From contig CAZPFK010000005.1 of NCBI GenBank assembly GCA_964585855.1, forward strand, positions 1,807 to 65,806: a DNA stretch of 64,000 nucleotides. Direction: 5' to 3'. The notes under the pieces are model-generated. The model saw only the letters and a list, made by a program, of their open reading frames with translations. It made no database searches and was not told the DNA's origin. How positions within the stretch are numbered: position 1 is the first letter of the stretch; every line of letters begins with the position of its first letter. This DNA comes from an uncultured Vicinamibacteraceae bacterium (lineage in GTDB: Bacteria > Planctomycetota > Phycisphaerae > Phycisphaerales > UBA5793). The position numbers and the translations under genes are program-made. Shown piece by piece: positions 2,538 to 51,547 of this stretch.

Positions 2538-5500
2538 TTGCATCTCCTGAATGTTGACCACGCAGAGATGAACGATCACCCCTCTACTACATCGGCGCGC
2601 AGCAAGGACGTCTGGGCACTGGCCGGCCGGGGCGCCTTCCTTGTCGAGTGCGGCCGCATCCTGCTGCAGCGGGAGCATCCGATCGCCGCCGTCATCTCCG
2701 AGGATGTGCGTCTGCACGAATTCGCCGACGCCTCCGGCCTGCCGCGATACGCCACGATGCAGGAGTGGATCGACACCGGCGGCACTGTTGACTTTCTCGC
2801 GGCCGTGATGGTCGAGGATGATCTCTCCGCCGCGCTGCCGCGCATTAATCACGCAGCGCTTCGATTCCAGGACGGCCCGGCCTGCGGCGGGCACATCGGC
2901 TGGCACGCTCCGGCCTGGGCGATCCTCACGCAGGTGCCGCAGCACGGCATCTGCTGGCTGAAGCAGGGCCCGACGGGCTTTGCGGGTGCGGTTGCCGAGA
3001 AGCGTTTCGATCTCGAAGCCGGTCTCGACGCCCGCGCCCTGGCGACGCGCTGCTTCGATGAGGGACTGGTTCTCTTCGCCTCGCTGCTGGATCGACTCGC
3101 CGCCGACGCGGCCGCCGCCGATGCCGTGACTCCCTACGACTCGCGTTTCCACGAGACCGATGAACCGCCCCCCGATGCCGGGCTGATCGATCTCCATCGG
3201 CCAGCCTCCTCCTGCCAGGCCGTCGTCTCCGCATTGGGCATTGACGGTGCGGAGAACACCTTTGCGTCGGCGCGGATCGCTCTCGGAACCGCCGGCTCCA
3301 AAGCGATGGTCTTCCTCCTTCCGATGCGGGCCGAAATTGAGACTGATTCATCCGACCACCCTCCCGGCACGATTCTCGGAGCCGACCATAACACGCTCAC
3401 TCTGGCTGTGGCCGACAGCGCCGTCCGCTTCTCCGCGTTGCGCCACGAGGACGGTCGACGCGCCGACGTGCCGGCCCTGCTCTCCGCGCTGGGGATTCAA
3501 GTGGGCGATGTCCTGCCCCGACTCGGTCGCGAGGAGATCAATCGGCTCCTTGATGAGTCCCGACGCGCTGCGCCCGTTGAACGGCTCTGGCGGCAGCGGC
3601 TGGAGGAGTCGCAGCCGCTGGAGTGCCCGATGCCGCTGCGCTCGGCCGTCGTCGCCGGTGTGCAGCGCCAAACGCTCTCGGTGTCGCTCGCCCCGGTGCG
3701 GGACCTCATCACCGGTCACCCCTGCGGCCAGGCCGCGCTCATTGCCGCCTTCTTCGCCCGCATCGGCGACCGGCGTGAGTTCGACCTCGGGTTTTGCCGC
3801 GAGTGTCCGAAGGTTTCCTTGCTGGCTTCGGTGACTCCGCTTCGGCTCCTCATCGACCCCGAGACATCGCTGCACGAACTGCTGCCGGCATTGGCCGAAT
3901 CCATCGACACGCAGCGTCACACTCCGCCCTTCCGAAGGGACCTCATCGCCCGGACGCCGGGCCTCTCGCAGCGCCTCGGGCGCGGCGAGGACCCCACCAT
4001 CTTTCCGATCACACTCTCACTCGAGGGCCCGGTCGATCGCCCCCTGCCGCAAGGGGCCGTCTGCGAGTGGATTCTCGACAACTCCGAGACGCTCACCCTC
4101 GCCTTCGACGCTTCCCGACTCAGCCCCGCCGACGCCCAGGCGTTGCTTGCCTCCTTCCGGCTCTACTCGGCCGAGGCAGCGGCCGACCCCTCCGCTCCGC
4201 TCTGGTCGATTCCTTTGCTCGACGCGCAAGAGCGTCGGCGGATTCTCATCGACTTCAACGACAACGCCAAGCCCTATCCCTTCGACCGCTGTCTGCACCA
4301 GCACGTTGAGGATGTCGCCGTACGCCTCCCCGACCACATCGCCGTTGAGTTTGAGGGAATGACGCTTACTTACGGCGAGCTGGATCGCCGCGCCAATCGC
4401 CTCGCGCATCTCCTGCGTGAGCACGGCGTGAAGCCCGATGACGTCGTCGGCATCTGCATGGAGCGCTGCCTCGAGATGCCGCTGGCGGTCCTCGCCGTCT
4501 GGAAGGCCGGCGCTGCCTACGTGCCCCTCGACCCCGCCTATCCCCGCGCCCGCCTGGCGGACCTGCTGACCGACACGCAGACCCGCATCGTGCTCTGTGA
4601 CGACCGCTTTCTCAATCTCTTCGACGCTGCCTTCACGCTGATTCCCCTCTCGCACTTCGACTCGCACACTCGCACCCTCCCCGAGACTCCGCCGCAGACC
4701 GGCGTGACCGCCGACAACCTCTCCTACGTCATCAACACCTCGGGCTCCACCGGCCGCCCCAAGGCCGTCGCCACCGACCACCGCGCCATCGCCAACAACC
4801 TCCTGTGGATGCAGGATCAGTGGCCGCTGACCCCAGAGGACCGCCTGCTCCAGAAGACCAGCTTCTCCTTTGACGTCAGCGTCAAGGAACTCATCTGGCC
4901 CCTCATCGCCGGCAGCCGACTCGTGCTGGCCCGGCCCGGCGGCGAGATGGACCCGGAGTACCTCTGCGCCCTGATGCGCGATGCCGGCATCACGATCACC
5001 CACTTCGTGCCGACCATGCTCGATCGTGTTCTCAGAGAGCCCGCAGCCCGGCAATGCAACTCGTTGCGCCTGCTGATGTGCGGCGCGGAAACGCTCCCGA
5101 TCGCCCTCAAGCGGCGATTCTTTGACATCTTCAACGCCGACCTGCTGCACCTCTACGGCCCGACCGAAGCCGCAATCGCCGTCACCGCCTGGCTCTGCCG
5201 GGCCGATGACCGCGATGAACAGCAGGAGCGCGTGCCGCTGGGCTTCTCCATGCCCAACGTGCGAATCCACCTTCTCGACTCGCATCTGCAGCCCGTTCCC
5301 GTCGGCGTCCCGGGCGAACTCTTCATCGGCGGTGTCGCGCTGGCGCGGGGATACCTCAACCGCCCCGACGAAACCGCCCGCCGCTTCATCCCCGACCCCT
5401 TCTCCGGCAATCCCGCCGACCGGCTCTATGCCACCGGCGACCTCGCCCGCTATCTCCCCGACGGCAACATCGAGTTTCTCGGCCGCAAGGACCACCAGGT

Positions 5501-13845: not shown

Positions 13846-15534
13846 ATGGGCATTGGAACGATTCTGCTTGAACGCGGGGTCATCACTCGCGAACAGCTCG
13901 AAGAGGCCATCGCCGCGCAGAAGCAGACCGGGGCGCGCCTTGACCACACCCTCGTCTCCCTCGGCTTCTGCACACAGACCGAAGTGCTGGCCGCCATCGG
14001 TGAGCAGTTTTCCATGGAGATCGTCGACCTCGCCGACGTCTCCCCGAACCGCGATGTCCTCGACCTCCTCCCCGCCCAACTGGTCTACAAGCAGAACTGC
14101 GTCCCCGTCTCACGAACCAACGGCACCCTCCGTGTTGCCACCAGCGACCCCTTCGAACTCACCGCCTTCGATGAACTCCGGCTCCTCACCGGCTGCTCCA
14201 TCGAACTCGTCCTCGCCGATGAGGAAGACCTGCACAAGTTCATCCGCCGCCACTACGGTGTGGCCGGCGACACCCTCGACGCGCTGAACTCCGAGGTCGA
14301 TCTCGACCGTGACACGGCCGAGGCGACGGCGAAACTCACCGGCGAAAGCCAGGCCGAACTCGAGGAGGCCCAGCAGGCCTCGGTCATCCGGCTGGTCAAC
14401 GAACTGCTCATCGAGGCGATCTCCACCCGCGCCACCGACGTTCACATCGAACCCTACGAAAACGCCCTCGAAGTGCGCTACCGCATCGACGGCGTGCTCT
14501 TTCGCCCTTCGGTCGCCTCAACCATCAACCGCTTCCGCCACGCCATCGTCAGCCGCATCAAGATCATGGCGAACATGAACATCGCCGAAAAGCGCCGTCC
14601 ACAGGACGGCCGCATCAATCTGCGCCACAAGGGCCGCGAGTATGACCTTCGCGTCTCGATCATCCCCATGATCTTCGGCGAGGGTGTGGTGATGCGCATC
14701 CTCGACAAGTCCTCGGTCCTGCTCTCGCTCAATGACCTCGGCATGCCCGATGACATCCTCGAGACCTGGGATGCCCTGATCAGCAGGCCTCACGGCATCA
14801 TGCTGGTCACAGGCCCGACCGGCTCCGGTAAGTCAACGACGCTGTACGCCTCCCTCAACCGCATCGTCTCCGAGGAGATCAAGGCCATCACCGTTGAGGA
14901 TCCCGTCGAATACCACATTCACGGCGTCAACCAGATCCCCGTCAATCACAAGATCGGCCTCACCTTTGCCGCCGGGCTGCGCTCCATCCTCCGCCACGAT
15001 CCGGACGTGATCATGATCGGGGAAATCCGCGACCTTGAGACGGCCGAGGCCGCCATCCAGGCCTCGCTGACCGGCCACCTGGTCTTCTCCACGCTTCACA
15101 CCAACGACGCTCCCGGCGCCACGACGCGACTGCTGGATATGGGCGTCGAGCCCTTCCTGGTCGCCAGTTCCATCGAGGGCGTCCTGGCGCAGCGCCTGGT
15201 TCGGCGCATCTGCCGCCACTGCAGCGAAGAAATCGATGCGCCGGAGATGGAGATCGCGCCGGAATGGCGTGAATTCGCCGACGGCCCCTGGTTCCTCGGC
15301 AAGGGCTGCAAGCAGTGCCGCCAGACCGGCTACCACGGCCGTCTCGGCATCTTCGAGCTGCTCCGCGTCGGCGAGGAGACGCGCGACCGCATCATGGAGC
15401 GGAAGAACGCAACACAGATTGCGCGCGAGGCGCTGCAGCGCGGCGAGTTGCAGCCGCTGGCCCGGGACGGCTTCGGTAAGGTCCGCCAGGGGCTGACCTC
15501 GGTGACCGAAGTCCTCCGCGCCGTCGCCACCTGA
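13846..15534 (+). CDS. pilB: GspE/PilB-family secretion or type IV pilus assembly ATPase; all catalytic motifs are canonical.
   Basis: Walker A GPTGSGKSTTLYA, Asp box ITVEDPVEY, Walker B DPDVIMIGEIRDLETA, His box TGHLVFSTLHTNDA, tetra-Cys CRHC...CKQC, and an N-terminal MshEN-like region. Confidence 0.9.
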   Translation: MGIGTILLERGVITREQLEEAIAAQKQTGARLDHTLVSLGFCTQTEVLAAIGEQFSMEIVDLADVSPNRDVLDLLPAQLVYKQNCVPVSRTNGTLRVATSDPFELTAFDELRLLTGCSIELVLADEEDLHKFIRRHYGVAGDTLDALNSEVDLDRDTAEATAKLTGESQAELEEAQQASVIRLVNELLIEAISTRATDVHIEPYENALEVRYRIDGVLFRPSVASTINRFRHAIVSRIKIMANMNIAEKRRPQDGRINLRHKGREYDLRVSIIPMIFGEGVVMRILDKSSVLLSLNDLGMPDDILETWDALISRPHGIMLVTGPTGSGKSTTLYASLNRIVSEEIKAITVEDPVEYHIHGVNQIPVNHKIGLTFAAGLRSILRHDPDVIMIGEIRDLETAEAAIQASLTGHLVFSTLHTNDAPGATTRLLDMGVEPFLVASSIEGVLAQRLVRRICRHCSEEIDAPEMEIAPEWREFADGPWFLGKGCKQCRQTGYHGRLGIFELLRVGEETRDRIMERKNATQIAREALQRGELQPLARDGFGKVRQGLTSVTEVLRAVAT

Positions 15535-16979: not shown

Positions 16980-18197
16980 GTGATGCTGGCGCCGATTCCT
17001 GACATCCTCGATGAACTCCGGGCCGGGCGAATGGTCGTCCTCGTGGACGATGAGGGCCGCGAAAACGAGGGAGACCTCGTGGCCGCTGCGGAACTGATCA
17101 CGCCGGCCCAGATCAATTTCATGACCAAGCACACGCCGGGATACCTCTGCGTAGCCCTTTCGGGCACCGACTGCGACCGCCTCGAACTCCATCCGCAGAC
17201 CGTCGCCAACACCGCCCTGCGCGGCACGGCCATGGCGGTCTCCGTTGACGGTCATCCCCGCCACGGCGTCGGCACCGGCATCTCCGCCTCTGACCGGGCA
17301 AAGACGGCCCGTTTGCTCGCCGACCCCGACGCTCAGCCCGAAGACCTCGTCCGTCCGGGCCACCTCGTGCCGCTGCGCGCCCGCGACGGCGGCGTGCTGG
17401 TCCGCACCGGGCAGACCGAGGGCTCCGTGGACCTGATGCGCCTCGCAGGCCTTCGCCCCGCAGCCGTGATCAGCGAAATCAGCCGGGACGATGGCGAAAT
17501 GGCCCGCCGACCGGAACTGGAAGTCTTCTGCGCCACCCACGGCCTGAAGATGTGCTCCGTCGAGCAGATCATTCACTACCGCCTGGAGCGTGAACGACTG
17601 ATCCGCCGTCTCGAACCGCTTGAAGGAACAGTCATCGAGACCGATCACGGCCCCTTCACCCTCATTGCCTACCAGAGTCTCGTTGATCCGCTGCCGCACA
17701 TCGCGCTGACGACCGGCGGCATCGGGGCGCTTGGCCCCGCAGGGCACTCCGGGGATGTTGACGATGCAATTCTTGTGCGCATGCATCGCCGCAACGTCCT
17801 GGGCGATATCTTCGGCGACCGCTCCCAGCCGACCAACCGCCTGTTGGCCGAATCCATGCGCCGCATTCAGCACGAGGGGCGCGGAGCCCTGGTGTATCTG
17901 CGGCCCTCAAACGTCGGCGAGGGCTTGCTCGGCGAACTTCAGACGCTCCGCCACCACGCTCCGTTCAACGTCCACTCGCCGAACCTGACGATGTTGCCCA
18001 ATCCCGGTGCCGGACCCTCTGAGGCCTACCAGCGCGACTTCGGCGTCGGCGTGCAGATTCTGCGCGACCTGGGCCTGCGACGTGTCCGCGTCCTTTCCAA
18101 CAACCCCCGTCGCCTGCCCAACCTCGGAGCCTTCGGCATCGAGATCACCGAGATCCTGCCCCTGGGCGAGGGCGACCCGCCGGAATCTGCGGGCTGA
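16980..18197 (+). CDS. ribB: 3,4-dihydroxy-2-butanone-4-phosphate synthase (RibB) fused to a GTP-cyclohydrolase-II-like domain that lacks the zinc cysteines (RibBX-type).
   Basis: N-terminal MVVLVDDEGRENEGDLVAAAE. In the C-terminal half, HRRNVLGDIFGDRSQPTNRLL stands where canonical RibA has HSECLTGDVFGSxRCDCGxQL. Confidence 0.85.
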   Translation: MMLAPIPDILDELRAGRMVVLVDDEGRENEGDLVAAAELITPAQINFMTKHTPGYLCVALSGTDCDRLELHPQTVANTALRGTAMAVSVDGHPRHGVGTGISASDRAKTARLLADPDAQPEDLVRPGHLVPLRARDGGVLVRTGQTEGSVDLMRLAGLRPAAVISEISRDDGEMARRPELEVFCATHGLKMCSVEQIIHYRLERERLIRRLEPLEGTVIETDHGPFTLIAYQSLVDPLPHIALTTGGIGALGPAGHSGDVDDAILVRMHRRNVLGDIFGDRSQPTNRLLAESMRRIQHEGRGALVYLRPSNVGEGLLGELQTLRHHAPFNVHSPNLTMLPNPGAGPSEAYQRDFGVGVQILRDLGLRRVRVLSNNPRRLPNLGAFGIEITEILPLGEGDPPESAG

Positions 18198-18199
18198 CC

Positions 18200-18236
18200 G
18201 GGGGGAAGTGGGGGGCGCAGGAGGGGAAGCGGGGGG
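18200..18236 (+). other. G-quadruplex-type motif (four G runs of 6, 6, 4 and 6) inside a purine-rich tract.
   Basis: GGGGGGaagtGGGGGGcgcaggaGGGGaagcGGGGGG starts 3 nt after the ribB stop, in the 196-bp spacer before pilT. Confidence 0.5.
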
Positions 18237-18393
18237 AACAAGAGGGAATAATTGTCGGCGGCAGAGGATTCTCCGAAGCCGCTCCAGTGTCGCGACGTCG
18301 GCTGACGCTCCTTCACGGTTCCCGTGAGGCGGTTGTCCCCGTAGAATCGGCACCGGTCCGCGACCTGACCGCCCGACACGCAGGAGATCGAAC

Positions 18394-19536
18394 TTGAGTA
18401 CGCACAACACTTTGACGCTCAACACCGTTCAGCACGATGAAGGAACGGAGACCGGCGCCGGCGAAGCCCTCTTCAAGACCTTTCTGAAGGCCACGATCCA
18501 TTTCGAGGCCTCCGACCTCATCATCAAGTCCGGCGCGTCGCCGAAGGTTCGGCTGCGCGGCTCGCTCAAGCCCCTGAAGGTTGACAAGGTCAGTCGCCAG
18601 CAGATGTTCCAGATTGCCAAAGACGTCCTCGACGAGGAGCAGTACGCGGGCTTCAAACGCCGGGGCTCGGCTGACTTCGCCTACTCCTACGACGAAGACA
18701 ATCGCTTCCGCGTCAACCTCTTCATGGCCCGCGGCAACCCCGCCATTGCCGCCCGTCTGATCACCAGCAACATCAAACGATTCGAGGATCTCTACCTCCC
18801 CAACCCCGAGGTCATGGCAAAGATGGCCATGAGCGCTCAGGGCCTCGTACTGCTGGCCGGCGTGACCGGCTCCGGCAAGAGCACGACGATCGCCTCGATG
18901 CTCCAGTACATCAACGAGCGCAAGCCCGTCCACATCGTCACCATCGAGGACCCTATCGAATACATCTTCAAGGATGCGATGGCCTTTGTGAACCAGCGCG
19001 AAGTCGGCATCGACTGCACTGACTTCAACGACGCCCTCCGGGCGCTGGTCCGTGAGAATCCCGACGTCGTGCTCATCGGCGAAATGCGCGACAAGGAAAC
19101 CTTCGAGGCCGCCATCCGGGCCGCCGAAACGGGCCACCTGGTCTTCGGAACCATCCACGCGTCATCTTCGTGGCAGGCCTTCGGCCGTATCTACGACCTC
19201 TTCACGCCTGACGAGCGCGACCAGATCCGAAAGCTGCTGGCCTACAACCTCCAGGGCATCGTCTACCAGAAGCTGCTCCCGACCCTTCATGCCGACATCG
19301 CCCGCGTCCCGGCCGTTGAGATTCTGATCAACAACGTCGCCGCCCGGAAGTACATCCTCGAGGCCCGTGAGGGCGAACTGCTCGACGTGATCCGCAACAA
19401 CCGCGAGTCGGGCATGCTGGACTTCACCAGCGCTCTGGTGCAGCTGGTCGAGCAGGAATTCATCCACTACAAGGTCGCCATGGACGCCACGCCAAACCCC
19501 GAAGAACTCTCCATGCGCCTCAAGGGCATCAGTTAA
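18394..19536 (+). CDS. pilT: PilT/PilU-family type IV pilus retraction ATPase.
   Basis: TTG start with GGAG 7 nt upstream. Walker A GVTGSGKSTTIASML, TIEDPIEY, DVVLIGEMRDKETF, TGHLVFGTIHASS, and AARKYILE resembling the PilT AIRNLIRE motif. Confidence 0.9.
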   Translation: MSTHNTLTLNTVQHDEGTETGAGEALFKTFLKATIHFEASDLIIKSGASPKVRLRGSLKPLKVDKVSRQQMFQIAKDVLDEEQYAGFKRRGSADFAYSYDEDNRFRVNLFMARGNPAIAARLITSNIKRFEDLYLPNPEVMAKMAMSAQGLVLLAGVTGSGKSTTIASMLQYINERKPVHIVTIEDPIEYIFKDAMAFVNQREVGIDCTDFNDALRALVRENPDVVLIGEMRDKETFEAAIRAAETGHLVFGTIHASSSWQAFGRIYDLFTPDERDQIRKLLAYNLQGIVYQKLLPTLHADIARVPAVEILINNVAARKYILEAREGELLDVIRNNRESGMLDFTSALVQLVEQEFIHYKVAMDATPNPEELSMRLKGIS

Positions 19537-19660
19537 CCGCGCTCGCCGCAGTTTTCCCGCCGGGCGGCTATGATCGCTCCGGTGCCCGCCAGCCCCCGGC
19601 CCCGGACTCCAACAGCCCCGTTGCTCTCTCCAAGGACTGACGAAGCGAGATTCACCGTTC

Positions 19661-21352
19661 ATGCTTCAAACCCCGCTGATTGCAGACAACTGGTACATCC
19701 TCGTCAGCCCCTGGAAGCCGTTTTTCGGCTTCGCAGCCGTGCTCGCCCTCGGCTGGCTGGCCTCGAGCAAGCTGGACAAGGACGCCCAGTACTTCCACCT
19801 CCCCCGCCGACAGTGGAATCTCGCGCATCTTCTTTCCATCATCGCGGGCCTCGCCGTCATGTGGATGCCCATCGAGCAGTGGTGGTGGTTCTATGCCGCC
19901 CTGCCGCTGGGGCTGATTGTCATGTCCTCCTCCACGCTGGCCTACTGGTGGTATCGCAACCGTAACGTTCCCGCCGACAAGCGCTTTTACCTCACGATGG
20001 ATTCGGTCCGACACGCAATGGCCGCCCGCGAGGAGGCGCGCGCCCTTCGCTCCTCGACGCTCGCCCTTCGCGGTGCCGACGGCAAGACCTACACGCTGCC
20101 TCCCTCAAAGGATGATCCTCTGCACAACGTGCACATCGCCATGGAGGAGATCATCGGCAGCGCTCTGCTGGCCCGTTCCGAGGTCATCGAAATGGGACCG
20201 ACCTCGCAGGGGCCCTACCAGGTCTTCCAGACCGTCGACGGCGTGCGCTACAAGCGCGATCCCATCGACCCCGCCCTCGCAAACGCCATCATCGACTACC
20301 TCAAGACCGTTGCCGGAATGGACGCCTCCGACAAACGCCGCAAGCAGGTCGCCGACCTCAACGCCACCTACGGCGCTGAAAACGTCGAGATGCGCCTCCG
20401 CACCGCCGGCTCCTCAGCGGGCCAGGCGCTTTCGATCGACGTTGAGCCGCGCCGCTCCATGAAGATGCGCTGCGAGCAGATCGGCATGTTCCCGCGCCAG
20501 CTGGAGACGCTGGAGGAGATGACCCGCGATCAGCACGGCGTCGTTCTCGTCGCCGCCGGCCCAAACCAGGGTCGCACAACGACGCTCTATGCCCTGATCC
20601 GCCGTCACGACGCCTTCACCAACAACGTCCGTACGCTGGAGCTGGAGCAGCTCGCGCAGATTGACGGCGTCGGCCACATGGAGTTCAAGCCCACCGGCGA
20701 CAGTGAGTACGCGATTCAGATTCGCTCCATGCTCCGCCGCGATCCGCACATCCTGGTCTCGATGGAGATTCCCGATGAGCGCACCGCAAAGGAGATCGCC
20801 GCTCCCGGCCTCAAGGGGCCGCTGATTTACGCCAGTCTCGTCGCCGAGGGCGGCATGGAGGCGCTGGCGGCCTGGGCGCGGATGGTGGGCGACCTGGAGA
20901 CGGCGGCGGCGCCGTTGCGGGGGGTGGTCGCTGAGAAGCTCCTGCGAACGCTCTGCCCCAACTGCCGTGTGCCCTATCGCCCCGCGCCGGAGCAGCTCAA
21001 GCGGCTCAATCTTCAGCCCGATCAGGTCAAGCAACTCTACAAGGCCTCCGGCAAGATCATGGAGCGCAACCGCGAGGAGACCTGTCCCAACTGCGGCGGT
21101 CTCGGCTATCTCGGGCAGACCGGCGCCTTTGAGATCTACTCCTTTGACGATGAGGCGCGCAAGCTGATTGCCAAGGGAGACCTGAATTCGCTCAAGACGC
21201 ACCTGCGCCGCCAGAAGTACATGAGCATTCAGGAAGCGGCCCTTCGCAAGGCCCTGGAAGGTGTGACGAGCATCGAGGAAGTCATGCGCGTCACGCAGCA
21301 GAAGAAGTCATCCTCGTCCCGGCAGCCGTCGGGCACGGCCCCGGCAGCCTGA
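19661..21352 (+). CDS. Membrane-anchored GspE/PilB-like protein with a degenerate ATPase active site.
   Basis: Three N-terminal hydrophobic segments. The T2SSE-like core reads AAGPNQGRTTTLYA (Walker A Lys replaced by Arg), TLELEQLAQ (no ED Asp box), DPHILVSMEIPDERTA and GPLIYASLVAEGG (no His-box histidines). The tetra-Cys CPNC...CPNCGGLGYLGQTGAFE is retained. Confidence 0.8.
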   Translation: MLQTPLIADNWYILVSPWKPFFGFAAVLALGWLASSKLDKDAQYFHLPRRQWNLAHLLSIIAGLAVMWMPIEQWWWFYAALPLGLIVMSSSTLAYWWYRNRNVPADKRFYLTMDSVRHAMAAREEARALRSSTLALRGADGKTYTLPPSKDDPLHNVHIAMEEIIGSALLARSEVIEMGPTSQGPYQVFQTVDGVRYKRDPIDPALANAIIDYLKTVAGMDASDKRRKQVADLNATYGAENVEMRLRTAGSSAGQALSIDVEPRRSMKMRCEQIGMFPRQLETLEEMTRDQHGVVLVAAGPNQGRTTTLYALIRRHDAFTNNVRTLELEQLAQIDGVGHMEFKPTGDSEYAIQIRSMLRRDPHILVSMEIPDERTAKEIAAPGLKGPLIYASLVAEGGMEALAAWARMVGDLETAAAPLRGVVAEKLLRTLCPNCRVPYRPAPEQLKRLNLQPDQVKQLYKASGKIMERNREETCPNCGGLGYLGQTGAFEIYSFDDEARKLIAKGDLNSLKTHLRRQKYMSIQEAALRKALEGVTSIEEVMRVTQQKKSSSSRQPSGTAPAA

Positions 21353-21371
21353 ACCTGGAGCACCTGTCCCC

Positions 21372-22484
21372 ATGATGAACATCGCGGTCATCGGAGTCGT
21401 CGGCATCATCGCCTGGGTCTGGGCGTCCTACGGCTTCTTTTCCTCACTCCTGCACTTCATCTCCGTCGTCGTCGCCGGCGCACTCGCCTTCGCCTCCTGG
21501 GAGGCCGCCGTCTATTTCGGCCTCAACCGCGTCGAGCAGCTGGCGGACATGCAGTGGGGCATCACCCTGATGCTGCTCTTTACCGTCTACCTTGTGATTC
21601 TCAAGACGGTGACCAACAAGGCCTGCCCCGGCAACATCGACTTCTCCGTCCTGGTCAATCTCATCGGCGGCGGCGTCCTCGGGGCGCTTTCGGGCGTCAT
21701 CTCCGCCGGCATCATTCTCATCGGCGTCAACTTCATCCAGGGCCCCAGCGAGCTGCTTGGCTACCGGGGATGGATCGTCGACAGCACCGGAAACATCACC
21801 CGCGACCAGAAACTCTGGCTCCCCGCCGATGAATGGACCTACTGGTTTTATTCAACTGCCAGTCTCGGGCCCTTCTCGGTTCCTAATCCCGTAGCCGAAT
21901 GGCATCCGCAGCTGGCCCAGCAGGCCGATCTCTATCGTGAGAGCTACGACAACGGCGCCAGCCGCATGGGCATGACACTGGGCGACTACTCCGTCAGCCG
22001 CGTCATCCGACTCGATGAGCAGCTCGACCCCGAACAGATCGCCGACTTCAGGGGCATTGCCGATCCCGAAACCGGCCGGCCCCCGACCGTCGGCGAGCGC
22101 TACGTCATCCGCACAATCCTCAACAACTCCACCTGGGATGACGGCGGCAAACTCCGCCTCACCAAGGCCCAGGTCCGGCTGGTGGTGCGCACTCCCGGCG
22201 GCGAGATGAAGCCCGTTCACCCGCACGCCTTCTACCAGCAGTTCCTCACCGAATCCAATGCCGAGTATCGCTTCGTCTATGACGCCGGCGACGTCGCCGC
22301 CTCCTCAGTCGGCAGCCCCTCGGAGACGAAACTGGCCTTTGAGTTTCTCGTGCCGCCCGGAGCCGTGCCGCACCACCTCATCATCCGCCAGGCCCGTCCC
22401 TCCAATGATCTGCCGACCGGGAACGACGTCGAACTGCTCTCAGCCGAGGAAGTGCTGGCCCAGGCCCTGACCGGCACGCTCTGA
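21372..22484 (+). CDS. Polytopic membrane protein (CvpA-like N-terminal half is possible) with a C-terminal soluble domain.
   Basis: Four to five hydrophobic segments in aa 1-125, then about 240 aa that look non-membrane. Starts 19 nt after the GspE-like gene. Confidence 0.65.
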   Translation: MMNIAVIGVVGIIAWVWASYGFFSSLLHFISVVVAGALAFASWEAAVYFGLNRVEQLADMQWGITLMLLFTVYLVILKTVTNKACPGNIDFSVLVNLIGGGVLGALSGVISAGIILIGVNFIQGPSELLGYRGWIVDSTGNITRDQKLWLPADEWTYWFYSTASLGPFSVPNPVAEWHPQLAQQADLYRESYDNGASRMGMTLGDYSVSRVIRLDEQLDPEQIADFRGIADPETGRPPTVGERYVIRTILNNSTWDDGGKLRLTKAQVRLVVRTPGGEMKPVHPHAFYQQFLTESNAEYRFVYDAGDVAASSVGSPSETKLAFEFLVPPGAVPHHLIIRQARPSNDLPTGNDVELLSAEEVLAQALTGTL

Positions 22485-22502
22485 TCCAGCGGCTGCGTTG
22501 CG

Positions 22503-23411
22503 ATGCGACCCTCCATCTCGATCCTCGCGCCGGCGAAGCTGAACCTCAGCCTCGCCGTGGGTCCGCCGCACTCCGGCATGCATCCGATCTGTTCCTGGAT
22601 GGCGCCGGTTTCGCTCTACGATGAATTGACCCTCACCGCCCTTGAGCCCGGCTACTTCTCCCGCTACGCCATCCTCTGGGCGCCCGGCGCCCGCCGCACC
22701 CGTGACATCGACTGGTCGATCACGAAGGATCTCGCCGTCCGCGCCCATCTCCTGCTGGAGCGCACCCTCGGCCGAGCCCTTCCGGTGCAGATGAAACTTG
22801 AGAAGCGCATCCCCGTCGGCGGGGGCATGGGCGGCGGCTCTAGCGATGCCGCGGCAATGCTGCGCGGCTGCAATGAACTCTTCCAACTGGGCCTCTCCGC
22901 CGATGAACTGCGCACCCTTGCCGCGCGGATCGGCAGCGACGTTCCTTTCTTCATCGACCCCTCGCCGGCAATCGTCAGCGGAATCGGCGATCGGATCGAA
23001 CCCCTCGCCTCACCGCGTGACCTCAGCGCCGTTGTCATCCTTCCCGAACTCGAAAGCGCGACACCGGCGGCCTACCGGCACTTCGATGAACTCAACACCG
23101 ATGTCGAGGCAGTTGCCGCCCGATTTGCCGCAGCCGCCGACGCCCTCAGAGAGACTTCCGCCTCATCCGAGGTATCGGCGACGTCCTTGATCAACCATCT
23201 TGAGGAGGCGGTCTTTGCGCTGCATCCCCCGTTGGGTGCGCTGCGACGGCAACTTCAGGAACTCCTTGATCTCCCGGTTCACCTCACCGGCAGCGGATCG
23301 ACGCTCTTTGTGCTTGCTCCCAATGCCGCCTATGCCGAACTTCTGGCCGAAAGGATTGAGCAGGTGCTGGAGATTCCCGCCCTGCCCGTCTCGCTGCATA
23401 CCCCTCTGTGA
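22503..23411 (+). CDS. ispE: 4-(cytidine 5'-diphospho)-2-C-methyl-D-erythritol kinase.
   Basis: APAKLNLSLAV and the GHMP kinase motif IPVGGGMGGGSSDAAAML. Confidence 0.85.
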   Translation: MRPSISILAPAKLNLSLAVGPPHSGMHPICSWMAPVSLYDELTLTALEPGYFSRYAILWAPGARRTRDIDWSITKDLAVRAHLLLERTLGRALPVQMKLEKRIPVGGGMGGGSSDAAAMLRGCNELFQLGLSADELRTLAARIGSDVPFFIDPSPAIVSGIGDRIEPLASPRDLSAVVILPELESATPAAYRHFDELNTDVEAVAARFAAAADALRETSASSEVSATSLINHLEEAVFALHPPLGALRRQLQELLDLPVHLTGSGSTLFVLAPNAAYAELLAERIEQVLEIPALPVSLHTPL

Positions 23412-28719: not shown

Positions 28720-30138
28720 TCAGGCAATGGCCGGCTCCGCCGCTGATCTCTCCGGCTCCATGACTGCCTTTTCAGGCGTCTCGCGACGTTGAACGGTGAC
28801 GACGAGGATGTCATCCAGCGATGAGCCGTTGCGGTAGCGTCGCACCGCTTCAGGAACGAACTCCACCAACGGACCGCCCTCCTGCAGATCCCAGGCCGCG
28901 ACGATCCGCTCCAGCCCGTCGATTCCCAGCTGGCGGCCGCGTGCGTCGGCGGCCTCACAGGCCCCATCGGTGTAGAGCAGCAGCGTGTCGCCGGCTTCGA
29001 GGGTGAGCGATTGTGAGTCGGCCTCGAACTCCCCATCGTCGCAGACGCCAAGCAGGAAGGTCGTCGAGTTGAGCCGTTCCACGCGGCCGTCGCGGCGGCG
29101 CAGCAATGCGGGCGGGTGACCGCAGTTGCACCACTCGAGCCGACCCTCGCGGTCGAGGGTGAGCCAGAAGCCGGTTGCGAAGATGCCGTGGCGCGCCAGT
29201 GTGAGGGTGAGGTAGCGGTTGAGCCGGCAGATGAGGTCAACCGCAGCGCGGCCGGGGTTCTCGGCCAGGAGCCGGTCGAGTTCACCGATAATGCGATTGA
29301 CGGTCAGCGCGGCGCTGATGCCGTGCCCGGTGACGTCGATGAGGGCGATGTGGTGCCGGCCCTCCGGATCGCGATGGTAGTGGACGAAGTCGCCGCCGAT
29401 CTGCCGCATGGGCTCATATGAGTAGACGAATTCGAGGTCGCGGAGGCGCATGGGCGGGGGGAAGCGCGTCTCGTGAATCTTGCGCGCATCCAGCAGGGTG
29501 CGTCGGGCGGTATCGACACGCCGGCGCAGGACAACGAGGTTGAGCAGGGCGCTCAGTCGCCGGAATCGCCAGGCGCACAGCAGCAGCCCCGCGGTGCTGA
29601 GCAGTGCCGCCGATCCAGCAGAACTGATGACGGTGGTGGAGCCGGGCGTGTAGGTGATGGCGACGGCGACAAACCAGAGGGGGTAGATGATCAGCAGGGG
29701 GGCGAAGGCCTGCCGGGTGCGCCAGGGAAGCACGGCGCAGGACATCACATGGATGATCGAGAGGATGACAATCGAACGCGAGAGCGCGCCTTCCACGAAG
29801 GTGTCATCGGTCGCCCAGGCGCCGATCGAGCCGGCCAGCAGCAGAATCGCAATGCCGGCCAGGTCGAGGTAGGCGGCGGTCAGGATGCGATCGTTGCCGG
29901 AGCGACGCAGCCCCAGCGCGGTGAAGGCCACCAGGAGCATGGCTGCGAGGTGGGAGGCCAGGAGGATGACGGGGCCGAGAGAGATCGGCGCCCCTTCGGG
30001 CAGACTGAAGATGCGAAAGAGAAAGACCGAAGCGCCCAGGGCAAGAAAGAGAATCCACCCCGCCGAGAGCCAGAGGAAGCGGCGGCGCAGCAACACTCCG
30101 AACTCCCGGTCAACGTCGGCTCCCGGAAGGCGGGTCAT
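28720..30138 (-). CDS. Membrane-bound SpoIIE/PP2C-family serine phosphatase.
   Basis: About 8 N-terminal TM segments. GGDFVHYH...IALIDVTGHGISAALTV and LLLYTDGACEA. The start overlaps the upstream stop (ATGA at 30135-30138). Confidence 0.85.
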   Translation of the reverse strand: MTRLPGADVDREFGVLLRRRFLWLSAGWILFLALGASVFLFRIFSLPEGAPISLGPVILLASHLAAMLLVAFTALGLRRSGNDRILTAAYLDLAGIAILLLAGSIGAWATDDTFVEGALSRSIVILSIIHVMSCAVLPWRTRQAFAPLLIIYPLWFVAVAITYTPGSTTVISSAGSAALLSTAGLLLCAWRFRRLSALLNLVVLRRRVDTARRTLLDARKIHETRFPPPMRLRDLEFVYSYEPMRQIGGDFVHYHRDPEGRHHIALIDVTGHGISAALTVNRIIGELDRLLAENPGRAAVDLICRLNRYLTLTLARHGIFATGFWLTLDREGRLEWCNCGHPPALLRRRDGRVERLNSTTFLLGVCDDGEFEADSQSLTLEAGDTLLLYTDGACEAADARGRQLGIDGLERIVAAWDLQEGGPLVEFVPEAVRRYRNGSSLDDILVVTVQRRETPEKAVMEPERSAAEPAIA

Positions 30139-31586
30139 GGCGTCGCTCCTGCGGGAACTGGCGTCCGGGGGCGGGCGTCCGATGCGACACTGACCGGGGC
30201 GATCTCGGCAGCGACAATGAGCAGGTCCTGACCGGGCGGGCGATCCGTATCGCGGAAGGCGTCAAGACGGCGAAGCAGTTCCTGCGGCCAGCGGCGGGCC
30301 GGATGCGCCGGCATCGATTCGATGATCCGCCGCAAGCCCCTGAATCCCAGAACGCGGTTGTCAGCGTTGACCTCCGAGACGGCACCGTCGGAGACGGCCA
30401 GCAGCACATCGCCGGGCCCGAGGCGAGTGTGGCGCGTGGCGTGGTCGGCGGTGCAGCCCGGCTCCGCGCCGAGGGTCCATGAAGTTGATTCGAGCTGTTC
30501 GACGCCGCCGCCGCAACGGACGACAAACGCCGGGAGGTGGCCCGCGCCGGCCCACTCCAGTGTGCCGCCGGGAGTCATTCGGAAGCACATGGCGACGGCA
30601 AAGACGCCGTGCGGGGCCAGGGTGAGGTCGGCGTAATGGTTGAGGGCCTCGATGGCTTCGCCAGGGCGGTCGGCAAGCCCTTCGGCCGAGAGCCGTTCGA
30701 GTTCGCCGTGAATGCGGTTGACGGTGAGCGCTGCGGCGATGCCGTCGCCGGTGACGTCGAGGACGACGAGATTCAGTGAGCCGTCGGGCAACGTGGCCGC
30801 GTGCAGGTAATCACCGCCGATTCCGCTGCGCGGCCGATCGAGGAAGTTGAATCGGATGGGGCCGTCGAGGACTGGTGCGGGAAAGATGGCGGCGTGGATG
30901 GCCTGGGCATCGAAGAGTTCGCGTTGAAAGCCCTCGTCAAGGCGGCTGAGGACGCCGGTCTCGAATCGCTGACCGAAGGAGCGGTGGCGCCAGCGGCAGA
31001 AGAGCAGGCCCATGCCGAGGAAGAAGGCGCCGATGAGGCCGTTGCCGATGAGGGTTCCGATGGTGACCTGCTCGGCAAAGAGGAGTGTGGCGACAGCCCA
31101 GATGAGCCACAGGGCAATCGCGGGCTGAGCGGCCTGAAGCGGTGACCAGGGCAGCACGAGGCAGGCGAGGAAGTGGGAGAAGACGCTCAGGAGGAATCCC
31201 GGCGCCTGATCGACGCCGGAGGCAATACCGAAAGCGCGCGGCAGGAAGCGCGTCATCACGGTGACCGTCGCCACGGCGATGATGATCCAGAAGACCAGGC
31301 GGATCAACTCGGCGCGCCCGGTCAGGCGAGTGGCTCCCAGCCACAGGCCAAGCGCCAGGATCGCCGTCACGACGGTGCGCTCGATGAGCGTGACAGCGTC
31401 GGTCTGAATGGTGAGGCCGGCCGGCAGCCCGACAATCACCTCCCAGGCGAGCCCGATTCCGATGGCGGTCAGGAGGAGGATGTTGAATCCGAGCCAGAGC
31501 CCGACCCAGAGGGTGAAGCGTTGCCGGAAGAAGTCGGACAGCGCCGCTTCAAATTCAGCCGACATCCCCGGATCGCGCTGGTCCAT
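30135..31586 (-). CDS. Membrane-bound SpoIIE/PP2C-family serine phosphatase (paralog of 28720..30138).
   Basis: Multi-TM N-terminus. GGDYLHAA...LVVLDVTGDGIAAALTV and VLLAVSDGAVSE. Starts 9 nt downstream of the eno stop. Confidence 0.85.
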   Translation of the reverse strand: MDQRDPGMSAEFEAALSDFFRQRFTLWVGLWLGFNILLLTAIGIGLAWEVIVGLPAGLTIQTDAVTLIERTVVTAILALGLWLGATRLTGRAELIRLVFWIIIAVATVTVMTRFLPRAFGIASGVDQAPGFLLSVFSHFLACLVLPWSPLQAAQPAIALWLIWAVATLLFAEQVTIGTLIGNGLIGAFFLGMGLLFCRWRHRSFGQRFETGVLSRLDEGFQRELFDAQAIHAAIFPAPVLDGPIRFNFLDRPRSGIGGDYLHAATLPDGSLNLVVLDVTGDGIAAALTVNRIHGELERLSAEGLADRPGEAIEALNHYADLTLAPHGVFAVAMCFRMTPGGTLEWAGAGHLPAFVVRCGGGVEQLESTSWTLGAEPGCTADHATRHTRLGPGDVLLAVSDGAVSEVNADNRVLGFRGLRRIIESMPAHPARRWPQELLRRLDAFRDTDRPPGQDLLIVAAEIAPVSVASDARPRTPVPAGATP

Positions 31587-48020: not shown

Positions 48021-48099
48021 GGCTTCTCTCCTTTTGATTGGCTGTTTCCGGAAACTCCCGCGGATCACGCCTCGGGATTAAGTTTCCGGACCATCGTTC

Positions 48100-51249: not shown

Positions 51250-51547
51250 CGGGTGGCTGGAAGTCAGGGTATCCGGCGGCCTCGGAGCGTCAACGTGTGC
51301 GCAATTCTCAAGAGCGCACGGGGCCCGGTCCGGACGACATCGGCCTAGAATGGCGGCCCGTCTTGCCGCGGGGGTCGTGTTCCCGGCCGGGATCGCCGAT
51401 GGAGGGTCATGGCGGCCCCCGAATCTGGCCGATTCGACAGAACAGATTCGTTCGTCTCTGCGGACATCGGAGCCCCCGCACAATTCGACATCTCAGTCTC
51501 ACTCCCGTCTCCGCATAAAACCGGAGGCGACTTCAGGAAATCGCACG

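What the first reader, a model, noticed from the sequence alone, without database searches (positions are those of the whole stretch)
19661..21352. Membrane-anchored GspE/PilB homolog with a dismantled ATPase site but an intact zinc-finger
The canonical PilB in the same window serves as an internal control.
- Walker A: GPTGSGKST in PilB versus GPNQGRTT here, so the catalytic Lys is replaced by Arg.
- Asp box: VEDPVEY versus LELEQLA.
- His box: TGHLVFSTLHTNDA versus GPLIYASLVAEGG, so both histidines are lost.
The tetra-Cys motif (CPNC...CPNC) and the overall fold signature are kept. Three N-terminal transmembrane segments are fused on, whereas normal GspE/PilB proteins are soluble. The gene sits 124 nt after pilT and 19 nt before a polytopic membrane protein gene. 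This looks like a pseudo-enzyme that could act as a membrane docking or regulatory subunit for the active hexameric ATPases.
Basis: partly seen in the sequence, partly recalled or inferred. Interest (0 to 1): 0.55.

Follow-up and report, generated by a model that had tools for sequence, protein, structure and literature searches.

The report
Membrane-anchored dead PilB-like ATPase module
This gene encodes a membrane-anchored, catalytically dead relative of the pilus/secretion motor PilB/GspE that, across planctomycete bacteria, almost always sits between an intact PilT motor gene and a CvpA-like membrane protein gene, pointing to an undescribed three-protein membrane module.

Summary
ORF 19661-21352 (+, 563 aa) has a complete PilB/GspE N2+C-terminal fold and both CxxC pairs. 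It lacks the Walker A Lys (Arg here), most of the Asp box, the Walker B Gly/Arg and both His-box histidines. Three N-terminal transmembrane helices replace the usual soluble N-domain.

It is not a decaying one-off. About 220 distinct sequences in Phycisphaerae and other Planctomycetota share the architecture and the losses. dN/dS is 0.13 overall, 0.17 for the membrane region and 0.095 for the dead ATPase domain.

- The gene belongs to a near-invariant triad. An intact PilT-like ATPase lies directly upstream in 73 of 77 loci, and a CvpA/Colicin_V-like membrane protein lies directly downstream in 76 of 76. The outer flanks vary, and the window's PilB is not part of it.
- A sister clade, with one member labelled Ca. 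Brocadiia, has the same anchor and the same triad but fully canonical ATPase motifs. So the anchor predates the catalytic loss.

The most likely role is a static membrane scaffold or adaptor for the PilT-like motor and the CvpA-like protein; this is inferred, not shown. No dedicated Pfam/NCBIfam model and no paper were found. Verdict: new variant of a known kind, interest about 0.6.

The parts
18394..19536 (+). PilT-like hexameric ATPase gene (380 aa), catalytically intact; first gene of the conserved triad
   Evidence: It scores 392 bits on NCBIfam TIGR01420 pilT_fam, above the 319 cutoff. The best PDB match is A. aeolicus PilT 2ewv at 1.2e-82. Walker A GVTGSGKST, IEDPIE, GEMRD and TGHLVFGTIH are all present. 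A full-length copy lies directly upstream of the target's homolog in 73 of 77 loci. dN/dS is 0.036.
19537..19660 (+). 124-nt intergenic spacer between the PilT-like gene and the target
   Evidence: It contains no sigma-70-like promoter, no intrinsic terminator and no Rfam match. The equivalent gaps in related loci are 23-364 nt.
19661..21352 (+). Target: membrane-anchored PilB/GspE-like pseudo-ATPase (563 aa)
19700..19966 (+). N-terminal membrane module (residues 14-102): three TM helices. Predicted topology is N-terminus out and ATPase-like domain in the cytoplasm.
   Evidence: The AF2 helices are 18-44, 49-68 and 76-102. The WW-octanol sums are -6.6, -9.0 and -10.8 kcal/mol. K/R versus D/E counts are 4/2 in loop 37-54 and 8/4 after TM3, against 1/1 and 0/1 on the other side. 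W30, W32, K40, D41, W52, N53, P72 and Y95 are at least 90% conserved in 116 sequences. dN/dS is 0.17.
20120..20470 (+). N2-like domain (residues 154-270); keeps the RR.Q motif (R226 invariant; R227 and Q229 at least 90% conserved) that aligns with EKRRPQDGR of PilB
20471..21295 (+). C-terminal RecA-like domain (residues 271-545) without a catalytic set; the most constrained part of the protein
   Evidence: Foldseek places it on PilF 5oiu and PilB 5tsh with TM-score 0.85 and rmsd 3.4 A. dN/dS is 0.095.
20555..20581 (+). Walker A remnant AGPNQGRTT (residues 299-307): Lys replaced by Arg, and the first and middle Gly lost
   Evidence: Alignments are. Within the target's cluster of 126 sequences this position is L in 90, R in 24 and K in 1.
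20636..20656 (+). Asp-box remnant LELEQLA (residues 326-332): only the first Glu (E327) is kept
20741..20776 (+). Walker B remnant DPHILVSMEIPD (residues 361-372): Asp and Glu kept, Gly replaced by Met, Arg replaced by Pro
   Evidence: Alignments are. The Glu position is D in 65 and E in 37 sequences of the cluster.
20813..20854 (+). His-box remnant KGPLIYASLVAEGG (residues 385-398): both His lost, replaced by the family motif GPLIY (Y390 invariant)
20954..20965 (+). First CxxC (CPNC, residues 432-435) of the tetracysteine Zn motif
   Evidence: C432 and C435 are invariant in 116 sequences.
21083..21094 (+). Second CxxC (CPNC, residues 475-478) of the tetracysteine Zn motif
   Evidence: C475 is invariant and C478 is at least 90% conserved.
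21372..22484 (+). CvpA/Colicin_V-like polytopic membrane protein (370 aa) with four TM helices and a beta-rich soluble domain; third gene of the triad
   Evidence: The window copy scores 14.6 bits on Pfam Colicin_V, aligning residues 4-127 to profile positions 3-126; orthologs in L001-L003 score 24-27 bits. Those of the intact clade score 30.9-39.6 bits, above the 29.3 cutoff. The AF2 model has pLDDT 80 with helices 2-20, 22-50, 61-84 and 93-121. There is no PDB fold match with E <= 0.001. It lies directly downstream in 76 of 76 loci. dN/dS is 0.14-0.18.

Best explanation
**What it is.** The gene encodes a catalytically inactive, integral-membrane paralog of the PilB/GspE extension/secretion ATPases.
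- Three N-terminal transmembrane helices replace the soluble N1/MshEN domain. Ordinary GspE/PilB use that domain to reach the membrane through GspL/PilM.
- The helices hold an otherwise complete N2 + RecA-like + Zn-finger body on the cytoplasmic face.

**The module.** It is the middle component of a conserved three-gene module:
- a PilT-like ATPase, which is intact and highly constrained;
- this protein;
- a CvpA-family polytopic membrane protein with a soluble domain.

**Evolution.** The ancestral module still exists in a sister clade that includes a Ca. Brocadiia MAG. There the membrane-anchored PilB-like subunit has all catalytic motifs, so the ancestral module carried two motors. In the lineage of this window the PilB-like subunit lost ATP hydrolysis but was kept.

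**Proposed role.** It most likely serves as a static membrane-fixed scaffold or adaptor. It would position the PilT-like hexamer, now the only motor, against the CvpA-like membrane partner or the pilus base.

**Shown:** architecture, loss of the catalytic residues, conservation, purifying selection, synteny, and the existence of the intact sister state.

**Inferred:** lack of ATPase activity, physical association of the three proteins, the adaptor role, and any link to type IV pilus retraction.
For: **Fold kept, catalytic set lost.**
- Pfam T2SSE matches end to end.
- Foldseek gives TM-score 0.85 to PilF/PilB.
- The AF2 model has pLDDT 92.9.

**Family-wide pattern.**
- Among 304 sequences the intact cluster has K in 77 of 80 and HH in 76 of 80.
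- The roughly 220 others lack both.
- New invariant residues appear: H316, D317, Y390, and the motif GPLIY.

**Purifying selection.** dN/dS is 0.128 overall, 0.172 for the TM region and 0.095 for the CTD.

**Membrane anchor.**

**Triad.**
- It is seen in L001-L003.
- A full PilT-like gene lies upstream in 73 of 77 loci, and a CvpA-like gene lies downstream in 76 of 76.
- A deeply divergent subclade has it too.
- The outer flanks are unrelated.

**Intact sister clade.** It has the same anchor motifs and the same triad.

**PilT-like partner.** It is catalytically intact in both clades.

**Precedent.** An inactive PilT-family hexamer can act as an adaptor for an active paralog. Walker A/B-inactivated PilT still supports PilU-driven retraction, and PilU cannot work without PilT (PMC6762196).
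Against: - No interaction, oligomeric state or enzymatic property was tested.
- In one lineage (L011, L012, L015, L017) the adjacent pilT is deleted, leaving a 41-70 codon remnant. The pseudo-ATPase and the CvpA-like gene nevertheless remain intact and constrained. The protein may therefore work without that PilT, or with a copy elsewhere in the genome.
- The P-loop backbone (G304, T307) and the N2 RR.Q arginines are conserved, which could mean a ligand is still bound.
- No pilin, PilC or PilM-Q genes are near the triad in the window, so a link to pili is unproven.
- The PilT-like proteins of the two clades are only 42-47% identical, and the CvpA-like proteins are not BLAST-alignable between clades. 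Orthology of the two triads rests on synteny and architecture.
Confidence: 0.5

Rival explanations
1. It is a nucleotide- or ligand-binding sensor or regulator. The protein no longer hydrolyses ATP, but it still binds ATP/ADP or another phosphate-bearing ligand in the remodelled pocket. It uses that state to gate the PilT-like motor or the CvpA-like protein.
For: - The P-loop shape is partly conserved: G304 is invariant, T307 is at least 90% conserved, and the consensus is AP.G.G[LR]TT.
- The N2-domain RR.Q motif (R226, R227, Q229) and R359/R360/D361 are conserved.
- New invariant residues (H316, D317, Y390) lie around the former site.
- This window's clade has Arg at the Lys position, which could still contact phosphate.
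- The CTD is the most constrained region, with dN/dS 0.095.
Against: - In most of the family the Lys position is Leu, Val, Ile, Gln or Met, which is hard to reconcile with phosphate binding.
- In this protein two of the three P-loop glycines are also gone.
- The Mg-coordinating Asp box is lost.
Confidence: 0.2
2. Its functional partner is the CvpA-like membrane protein alone. The pseudo-ATPase is a cytoplasmic cap or regulator of a CvpA-family membrane protein, in envelope or export-related function. The upstream pilT is a conserved neighbour rather than a subunit.
For: - The CvpA-like gene lies directly downstream in 76 of 76 loci, with short gaps of 13-240 nt and 19 nt here.
- The pair persists under purifying selection in the lineage where pilT was deleted.
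- PilT evolves much more slowly (dN/dS 0.036) than the other two genes (0.13-0.18). That fits a housekeeping pilus motor with its own constraints.
Against: - A full PilT-like gene is directly upstream in 73 of 77 loci, and also in the intact sister clade and in a divergent subclade. Such synteny across 26-27% protein identity is unusual without functional coupling.
- CvpA's function is itself largely unknown (bioRxiv 10.1101/2020.09.25.314492).
Confidence: 0.2
3. It is still an ATPase that uses non-canonical catalytic residues, with Arg305 in place of Lys, and Glu327 and Glu369 retained.
For: E327 and, in this protein, E369 are retained, and R305 is basic.
Against: - Both His-box histidines, the Asp-box Asp and second Glu, the Walker B Gly and Arg, and two P-loop glycines are lost.
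- The Arg is not conserved in the family; Leu predominates.
- The Walker B Glu position varies: D in 65, E in 37, others in the remainder.
- In PilT, Walker A and Walker B substitutions inactivate the motor (PMC6762196).
Confidence: 0.05
4. It is a non-functional, decaying PilB paralog, or the N-terminal extension is an annotation artefact with the true start downstream.
For: Catalytic motifs are lost. In-frame ATG codons exist at codons 67, 69, 88, 113, 120 and 161.
Against: - More than 200 distinct full-length homologs have conserved length and 23 invariant residues.
- dN/dS is 0.13 overall and 0.17 in the TM region.
- GC3 is 0.85 in codons 1-105, as in the rest.
- N-terminal motifs are conserved down to 26-27% identity, including in the catalytically intact clade.
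Confidence: 0.02

Closest known systems
GspE / PilB / PilF extension and secretion ATPases (Pfam PF00437 T2SSE; NCBIfam TIGR02533, TIGR02538; structures 4ksr, 5tsh, 5oiu)
   Same: It has the same N2 + RecA-like C-terminal fold (Foldseek TM-score 0.85; PDB sequence hits at 1e-45). It has the same tetracysteine Zn motif, which PilT lacks. The RR.Q motif of the N2 domain is kept.
   Different: The Walker A Lys, the Asp box, the Walker B Gly/Arg and both His-box histidines are missing. There is no N1E/MshEN domain; three transmembrane helices stand in its place. It scores far below every equivalog cutoff. It is not encoded next to GspF/PilC, GspL/PilM or pilins.
Catalytically intact membrane-anchored GspE-like clade found here (e.g. 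P0237, P0302, P0303, P0276; one member labelled Ca. Brocadiia)
   Same: It has the same N-terminal three-helix module with shared motifs (W..S..D....WN; Y..RN..VPE). It has the same length, the same Zn motif and the same triad with a PilT-like gene upstream and a Colicin_V-like gene downstream.
   Different: That clade keeps GPTGSGK[ST]T, IE[DN]PIE, GEIRD and TGHxVFTT[LI]H in 74 of 74 full-length members. It is only 26-27% identical to the target. As far as the searches show, this clade is also undescribed.
PilT/PilU pair of type IVa pili, where ATPase-dead PilT still enables PilU-driven retraction (PMC6762196; PMC6821130)
   Same: It is a functional analogy: an inactive hexameric PilT-superfamily ATPase acts as the adaptor that lets an active paralog work, and the two are encoded side by side.
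   Different: There the inactive state is an engineered or rare allele of a soluble PilT. Here the inactive partner is a PilB-type protein, naturally and anciently degenerate, and an integral membrane protein. No interaction has been shown here.
CvpA (Colicin V production protein, PF02674), relevant to the downstream partner
   Same: It has a four-helix N-terminal membrane domain that aligns with the Colicin_V profile. The intact-clade orthologs score above the gathering score, and the window's clade scores below it.
   Different: It carries an extra beta-rich soluble domain of ~240 aa or more with no PDB fold match. E. coli CvpA is not known to be linked to PilT-family ATPases (own knowledge), and its function is largely unknown.

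Membership tests
GspE/PilB-type secretion ATPase (PF00437; TIGR02533/TIGR02538) | N2 + RecA-like C-terminal domain fold | tested here: met
   Pfam T2SSE scores 140 bits against a cutoff of 24.9, covering profile positions 13-370 of 370. Foldseek to 5oiu/5tsh gives TM-score 0.85 and rmsd 3.4 A.
GspE/PilB-type secretion ATPase (PF00437; TIGR02533/TIGR02538) | Walker A GxxxxGK[ST] | tested here: not met
   The sequence is AGPNQGRTT, with Arg in place of Lys and two Gly lost. The family has L, R, V, I, Q or M at the Lys position.
GspE/PilB-type secretion ATPase (PF00437; TIGR02533/TIGR02538) | Asp box (E-D-P-x-E) | tested here: not met
   The sequence is LELEQLA; only the first Glu is retained.
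GspE/PilB-type secretion ATPase (PF00437; TIGR02533/TIGR02538) | Atypical Walker B Dhhhh-GE-x-RD with catalytic Glu and adjacent Arg | tested here: not met
   The sequence is DPHILVSMEIPD. Asp and Glu are present but Gly is replaced by Met and Arg by Pro. The Glu position is not conserved in the family.
GspE/PilB-type secretion ATPase (PF00437; TIGR02533/TIGR02538) | His box with two histidines | tested here: not met
   The sequence is KGPLIYASLVAEGG, with no His.
GspE/PilB-type secretion ATPase (PF00437; TIGR02533/TIGR02538) | Tetracysteine Zn-binding motif in the C-terminal domain | tested here: met
   CPNC is at 432-435 and CPNC at 475-478. C432, C435 and C475 are invariant and C478 is at least 90% conserved. 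Zn binding itself was not tested.
GspE/PilB-type secretion ATPase (PF00437; TIGR02533/TIGR02538) | Soluble N-terminal domain (N1E / MshEN) for docking to GspL/PilM | tested here: not met
   There is no MshEN or other Pfam hit in residues 1-160, whereas the window's PilB has MshEN at 74.8 bits. Three TM helices stand in its place.
GspE/PilB-type secretion ATPase (PF00437; TIGR02533/TIGR02538) | Score above the NCBIfam equivalog cutoff | tested here: not met
   GspE scores 182 against 630, PilB 139 against 676, and TfpB 146 against 850.
GspE/PilB-type secretion ATPase (PF00437; TIGR02533/TIGR02538) | ATP hydrolysis and hexamer formation | not testable with these tools
   This needs purified protein. 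No multimer prediction was available.
PilT/PilU retraction ATPases (TIGR01420) | Score above the subfamily cutoff; no tetracysteine motif; ~350-400 aa | tested here: not met
   The target scores 20 bits against a cutoff of 319, has the tetracysteine motif, and is 563 aa. The upstream gene does qualify, at 392 bits.
   
   Related loci show 73 of 77 and 76 of 76.
CvpA / Colicin_V (PF02674), for the downstream gene 21372..22484 | Score above the Pfam gathering threshold (29.3 bits) | tested here: inconclusive
   The window copy scores 14.6 bits (E 0.033), although it aligns over profile positions 3-126 of 144. Syntenic orthologs score 24-27 bits and 30.9-39.6 bits. NCBI names one ortholog 'CvpA family protein'.

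The most novel reading that the evidence does not exclude
The PilT-like ATPase, the membrane-anchored PilB/GspE-like protein and the CvpA-family protein form a self-contained inner-membrane machine that has not been recognised before. It is ancestral in Planctomycetota and independent of the classical PilC/PilM-Q pilus apparatus. In this reading:
- the CvpA-family protein takes the place of the platform or conduit;
- the integral-membrane PilB-like ring is the stator, active in some lineages and fossilised in most;
- PilT is the motor.

This would be the first integral-membrane member of the PilT/GspE ATPase superfamily. It would also give the first mechanistic context for the widespread but unexplained CvpA family.
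Probability: 0.2. Interest if true: 0.8.

Novelty: new variant of a known kind. Interest (0 to 1): 0.6.

Why it matters
**An unusual architecture.** ATPases of the PilB/GspE/PilT superfamily are textbook soluble hexamers. They reach the membrane only through partner proteins. A large and old family that is itself an integral membrane protein is a distinct architectural solution.

**A natural experiment.** The family exists in both a catalytically intact and a catalytically dead state, inside the same conserved three-gene module. That asks what the non-catalytic functions of a pilus or secretion motor ring are. The engineered ATPase-dead PilT that still supports PilU suggests an adaptor role, and here nature appears to have fixed such a state.

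**A handle on CvpA.** The strict linkage to a CvpA-family protein gives a testable lead on a widespread membrane protein family whose function is still largely unknown.

**An annotation problem.** These proteins are currently labelled GspE/PulE, TadA or 'T2SS/T4P/T4SS ATPase'. Metabolic and trait inference from planctomycete MAGs will therefore count them as active secretion or pilus motors.

Tried and rejected
**Division of labour hypothesis.** I tested whether the dead subunit needs PilT because it lost its own activity, so that intact forms would lack PilT. This is rejected: the intact clade has the same PilT-like neighbour.

**First synteny count.** The 77 of 77 figure for PilT upstream was too generous. 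Four loci have only a 41-70 codon pilT remnant next to an opposite-strand IMPDH gene. The corrected figure is 73 of 77. Masking by runs of N was excluded.

**First dN/dS run.** The run on 1,523 divergent pairs gave ratios of 0.45-0.78. Synonymous sites are saturated at GC3 of about 0.85, so I discarded it and redid the analysis on 36 close pairs. Those pairs are not phylogenetically independent.

**Hydropathy.** Kyte-Doolittle at threshold 1.6 found only one of the three helices, because they are Trp-rich. The octanol scale and the AF2 model settle the point.

**Related-locus search.** The search with the 27-sequence alignment failed because no stretch was conserved enough. I redid it with 8 closer sequences.

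**Searches that found nothing.**
- PADLOC defence models: no hit for the target or the CvpA-like protein.
- Rfam and promoter/terminator scans of 18100-22700.
- PDB fold search with the CvpA-like model: no match with E <= 0.001.
- Six literature searches for a membrane-anchored or degenerate GspE/PilB, or for a PilT-CvpA link, in Planctomycetes. The library lacks most subscription-journal papers, so prior description cannot be excluded.

**Other pilus genes.** A scan of the whole window found no PilC, PilM-Q or pilins.
Full report
**1.

The ORF 19661..21352 (+) encodes 563 aa from an ATG. It lies 124 nt after a PilT-like gene (18394..19536) and 19 nt before a 370-aa membrane protein gene (21372..22484). 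Its codon-position GC profile (GC3 0.85) matches the neighbouring genes.

Pfam T2SSE matches it over profile positions 13-370 of 370, but at only 140 bits. The canonical PilB in the same window (13846..15534) scores 447 bits. Every NCBIfam equivalog model is far below its cutoff; GspE, for example, scores 182 against 630.

Ungapped BLASTP and HMMER alignments to the window's PilB and to V. cholerae EpsE give these motif states:

| Motif | PilB in window | Target | What is lost |
|---|---|---|---|
| Walker A | GPTGSGKST | AGPNQGRTT | Lys becomes Arg; in this register the first and middle glycines are also lost |
| Asp box | VEDPVEY | LELEQLA | all but the first Glu |
| Walker B | DPDVIMIGEIRD | DPHILVSMEIPD | Gly and Arg (Asp and Glu kept) |
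| His box | TGHLVFSTLHTNDA | KGPLIYASLVAEGG | both His |

Both CxxC pairs are kept (432-435 and 475-478).

**2. The fold and the membrane anchor**

An AlphaFold2 model built on 116 homologs is confident (pLDDT 92.9, pTM 0.80). It contains:
- three long N-terminal helices (18-44, 49-68, 76-102);
- a linker helix (113-131);
- an N2-like domain and a RecA-like C-terminal domain.

Foldseek places the soluble part on T. thermophilus PilF and G. metallireducens PilB with TM-score 0.85 and rmsd about 3.4 A.

Several results show that the helices are membrane helices and that they are translated:
- Each of the three helices contains a 19-mer with favourable octanol transfer energy (-6.6, -9.0 and -10.8 kcal/mol; scale values from memory). 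No other 19-mer in the protein is below zero.
- The charge distribution fits an N-out, C-in topology, with the ATPase-like body in the cytoplasm.
- Residues W30, W32, K40, D41, W52, N53, P72 and Y95 are at least 90% conserved in 116 sequences.
- GC3 is 0.85 in codons 1-105, as in the rest.
- dN/dS for residues 15-100 is 0.17.

**3. It is a large, constrained family, not a decaying copy**

A word-indexed search found at least 120 full-length relatives at 37-60% identity. Where they carry a name, it is Phycisphaerae or Planctomycetota. An exhaustive HMMER search over 1.84 billion cluster representatives found more than 100 further 50%-identity clusters. These align from about residue 10-30 to the C-terminus, down to about 28% identity.

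A motif table and a clustering of 304 sequences give the family-wide states:
- One cluster (n=80, which includes soluble PilB) has K/EDE/E/HH.
- All other clusters, about 220 sequences in several deep subclades, lack the Lys and both His. L, R, V, I, Q or M stands at the Lys position.
- The target's own cluster (n=126) has L in 90 and R in 24.
- The family has also gained invariant residues of its own: H316 and D317 in RHDAYTSNI, and Y390 in GPLIY.

On 36 close gene pairs, dN/dS is as follows:

| Gene or region | dN/dS |
|---|---|
| Target, whole protein | 0.128 |
| Target, degenerate C-terminal domain | 0.095 |
| PilT-like neighbour | 0.036 |
| CvpA-like neighbour | 0.14-0.18 |

An earlier run on divergent pairs was saturated, and I discarded it.

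**4. The real unit is a three-gene module**

Contexts of three relatives at 37-49% identity share only three genes:
- a PilT-like ATPase of 380-393 aa;
- the anchored pseudo-ATPase;
- a Colicin_V/CvpA-like membrane protein of 422-592 aa.

A scan of one genome per species found 128 genomes with a relative. In the 80 loci kept, plus the first three:
- A full PilT-like gene lies directly upstream on the same strand in 73 of 77 loci that have enough flank.
- A CvpA-like gene lies directly downstream in 76 of 76.
- No canonical PilB lies within the flanks of any locus. The PilB 4 kb upstream in this window is therefore not part of the module.
- A deeply divergent subclade (P0117) shows the same order.

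Four loci from one lineage carry only a 41-70 codon 3' remnant of pilT, next to an opposite-strand IMPDH gene. The other two genes stay intact and constrained in that lineage.

No sigma-70-like promoter, intrinsic terminator or Rfam element lies within 18100-22700. That is compatible with co-transcription but does not prove it. The rest of the 64-kb window holds no PilC, PilM-Q or pilin genes.

**5. The partners**

The PilT-like protein passes the PilT/PilU family cutoff (392 against 319 bits). Its best solved relative is A. aeolicus PilT (1.2e-82). All four catalytic motifs are intact in every triad examined.

The downstream protein has these features:
- It has four TM helices plus a beta-rich soluble domain (AF2 pLDDT 80).
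- No PDB fold match reaches E <= 0.001.
- Its membrane domain aligns with Pfam Colicin_V. The score is below threshold in this clade (14.6-26.8 bits) and above threshold in the intact clade (30.9-39.6 against 29.3 bits).
- CvpA's own function is described as largely unknown (bioRxiv 10.1101/2020.09.25.314492).

**6. An intact sister state exists**

Distant hits P0237 and P0249 carry the same N-terminal membrane motifs but have canonical GPTGSGKTT, IE[DN]P[IV]E, GEIRD and TGHxVF.T[IV]H. P0226, P0262 and P0269 look intermediate: the Lys is kept and the His box is lost.

A search seeded with P0237 found a sizeable clade, and 74 of 74 full-length members have canonical motifs. One cluster member is labelled Candidatus Brocadiia. 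Three of their contexts show the same triad.

Lost catalytic motifs are unlikely to be regained (inference). The anchored, catalytically active protein in a two-ATPase module is therefore the ancestral state, and the window shows the derived, inactive state. Between the clades the anchored proteins are 26-27% identical, the PilT-like proteins are 42-47% identical, and the CvpA-like proteins are not BLAST-alignable. The homology of the two triads thus rests on architecture and synteny.

**7. Mechanism**

*Shown:*
- It is an integral-membrane, PilB-type body without a catalytic set.
- It is under purifying selection.
- It is locked in synteny with an intact PilT-family motor and a CvpA-family membrane protein.

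*Inferred:*
- It no longer hydrolyses ATP. According to PMC6762196, Walker A is needed for ATP binding, the Walker B Glu for hydrolysis, the Asp box for Mg2+, and the His box is also conserved.
- It acts as a membrane-fixed scaffold or adaptor that positions the PilT-like hexamer relative to the CvpA-like protein or the pilus base.

The nearest functional precedent is the PilT/PilU pair. Walker A/B-inactivated PilT still supports PilU-powered retraction, and PilU cannot function without PilT (PMC6762196).

The rivals are:
- a ligand-binding regulator, suggested by the conserved G304, T307, RR.Q, H316 and D317;
- a partnership with the CvpA-like protein only, suggested by the pilT-deleted lineage;
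- residual non-canonical ATPase activity, which is unlikely;
- a pseudogene or a wrong start codon, which is effectively excluded.

**8. Comparison and novelty**

By fold and Zn motif it belongs to the PilB/GspE branch of the superfamily, not the PilT branch. It fails four of the five catalytic-motif criteria, lacks the N1/MshEN domain and misses all equivalog cutoffs. It should not be annotated as a GspE, PilB or TadA ATPase.

No Pfam or NCBIfam model is specific for it. Source annotations are inconsistent: 'GspE/PulE family', 'TadA', 'T2SS/T4P/T4SS ATPase' and 'hypothetical'. Six literature searches found no description of it. That library lacks most subscription-journal papers, so prior description cannot be excluded.

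I rate it a new variant of a known kind. My confidence is high in the descriptive findings and moderate (about 0.5) in the scaffold/adaptor mechanism. Interest is about 0.6.

Noticed in passing
window 13846-15534 (+): The canonical PilB of this window carries an MshEN domain (74.8 bits) and an MshE-type c-di-GMP-binding motif (NF053729, 59 bits against a cutoff of 38). It stands alone: no pilC, pilM-Q or pilin genes occur anywhere in the 64 kb. It is separated from the PilT triad by a small membrane ORF, an Exo_endo_phos gene and what I read from the translation as a RibBA-like gene (not scanned against any library).
   Followed up: partly
L011:2071-2193, L012:1581-1703, L015:5749-5958, L017:3638-3835: In one Phycisphaerales/Planctomycetota MAG lineage the pilT gene of the triad has been deleted. 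Only the last 41-70 codons remain (60-83% identical to PilT), abutting an opposite-strand IMPDH gene. The pseudo-ATPase and the CvpA-like gene remain intact, with pN/pS of about 0.2. Whether another pilT exists elsewhere in those genomes is unknown.
   Followed up: partly
proteins P0225, P0232, P0254, P0258 (and P0239, P0245, P0251 etc.): These ~1000-aa proteins have two tandem T2SSE domains and four CxxC motifs. In some, only one of the two domains has a canonical Walker A (GPTGSGKT). This would be a fused version of an active plus degenerate PilB pair. One related cluster is labelled Candidatus Moranbacteria.
   Followed up: no
protein P0019: This close relative of the target (R-clade) has Lys back at the Walker A position (PPDNGKTT), while its Asp box, Walker B signature and His box remain degenerate. 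It is probably a single-step Arg-to-Lys change without restored catalysis.
   Followed up: no
loci L009, L014, L018, L073, L077, L081: Contigs carrying the Phycisphaerae-type triad sit in MAGs labelled Isosphaeraceae, Candidatus Kuenenia stuttgartiensis, Klebsiella sp. and Limnohabitans sp. These are probably binning or labelling errors, so taxon labels in this family should be treated with caution.
   Followed up: no
window 57834-63926 (+): This 2030-aa ORF has cytochrome c / multihaem-like matches around residues 690-830 and a CarboxypepD_reg domain at the C-terminus. It is a giant putative surface or periplasmic redox protein.
   Followed up: no
window 28720-31586 (-) and 49666-51483 (-): Two adjacent SpoIIE/PP2C-type phosphatase genes (472 and 483 aa) lie here, with a third GAF-SpoIIE phosphatase (605 aa) further on. 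That is an unusual density of partner-switching-type phosphatases.
   Followed up: no
window 46887-48068 (-) and 48275-49396 (-): Two tandem paralogous genes have weak DUF4394 matches. They lie in the stretch with the lowest GC of the window (0.61-0.62 against ~0.65).
   Followed up: no
window 1770-6869 (+): A YqcI/YcgG family gene is immediately followed by a single-module NRPS-like protein of 1443 aa (AMP-binding, PP-binding, thioesterase). GT2 and Wzy_C (O-antigen ligase-like) genes come next.
   Followed up: no
window 20336-20347 (residues 226-229 of the target): The N2-domain arginine motif (RR.Q, aligned with EKRRPQDGR of PilB) stays invariant or nearly so, although the protein's own catalytic site is gone. 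Arginines of this kind surround the ATP site in PilT-family motors (PMC6762196 describes a network of arginine residues around the ATP-binding site). Why they are retained here is unexplained.
   Followed up: no
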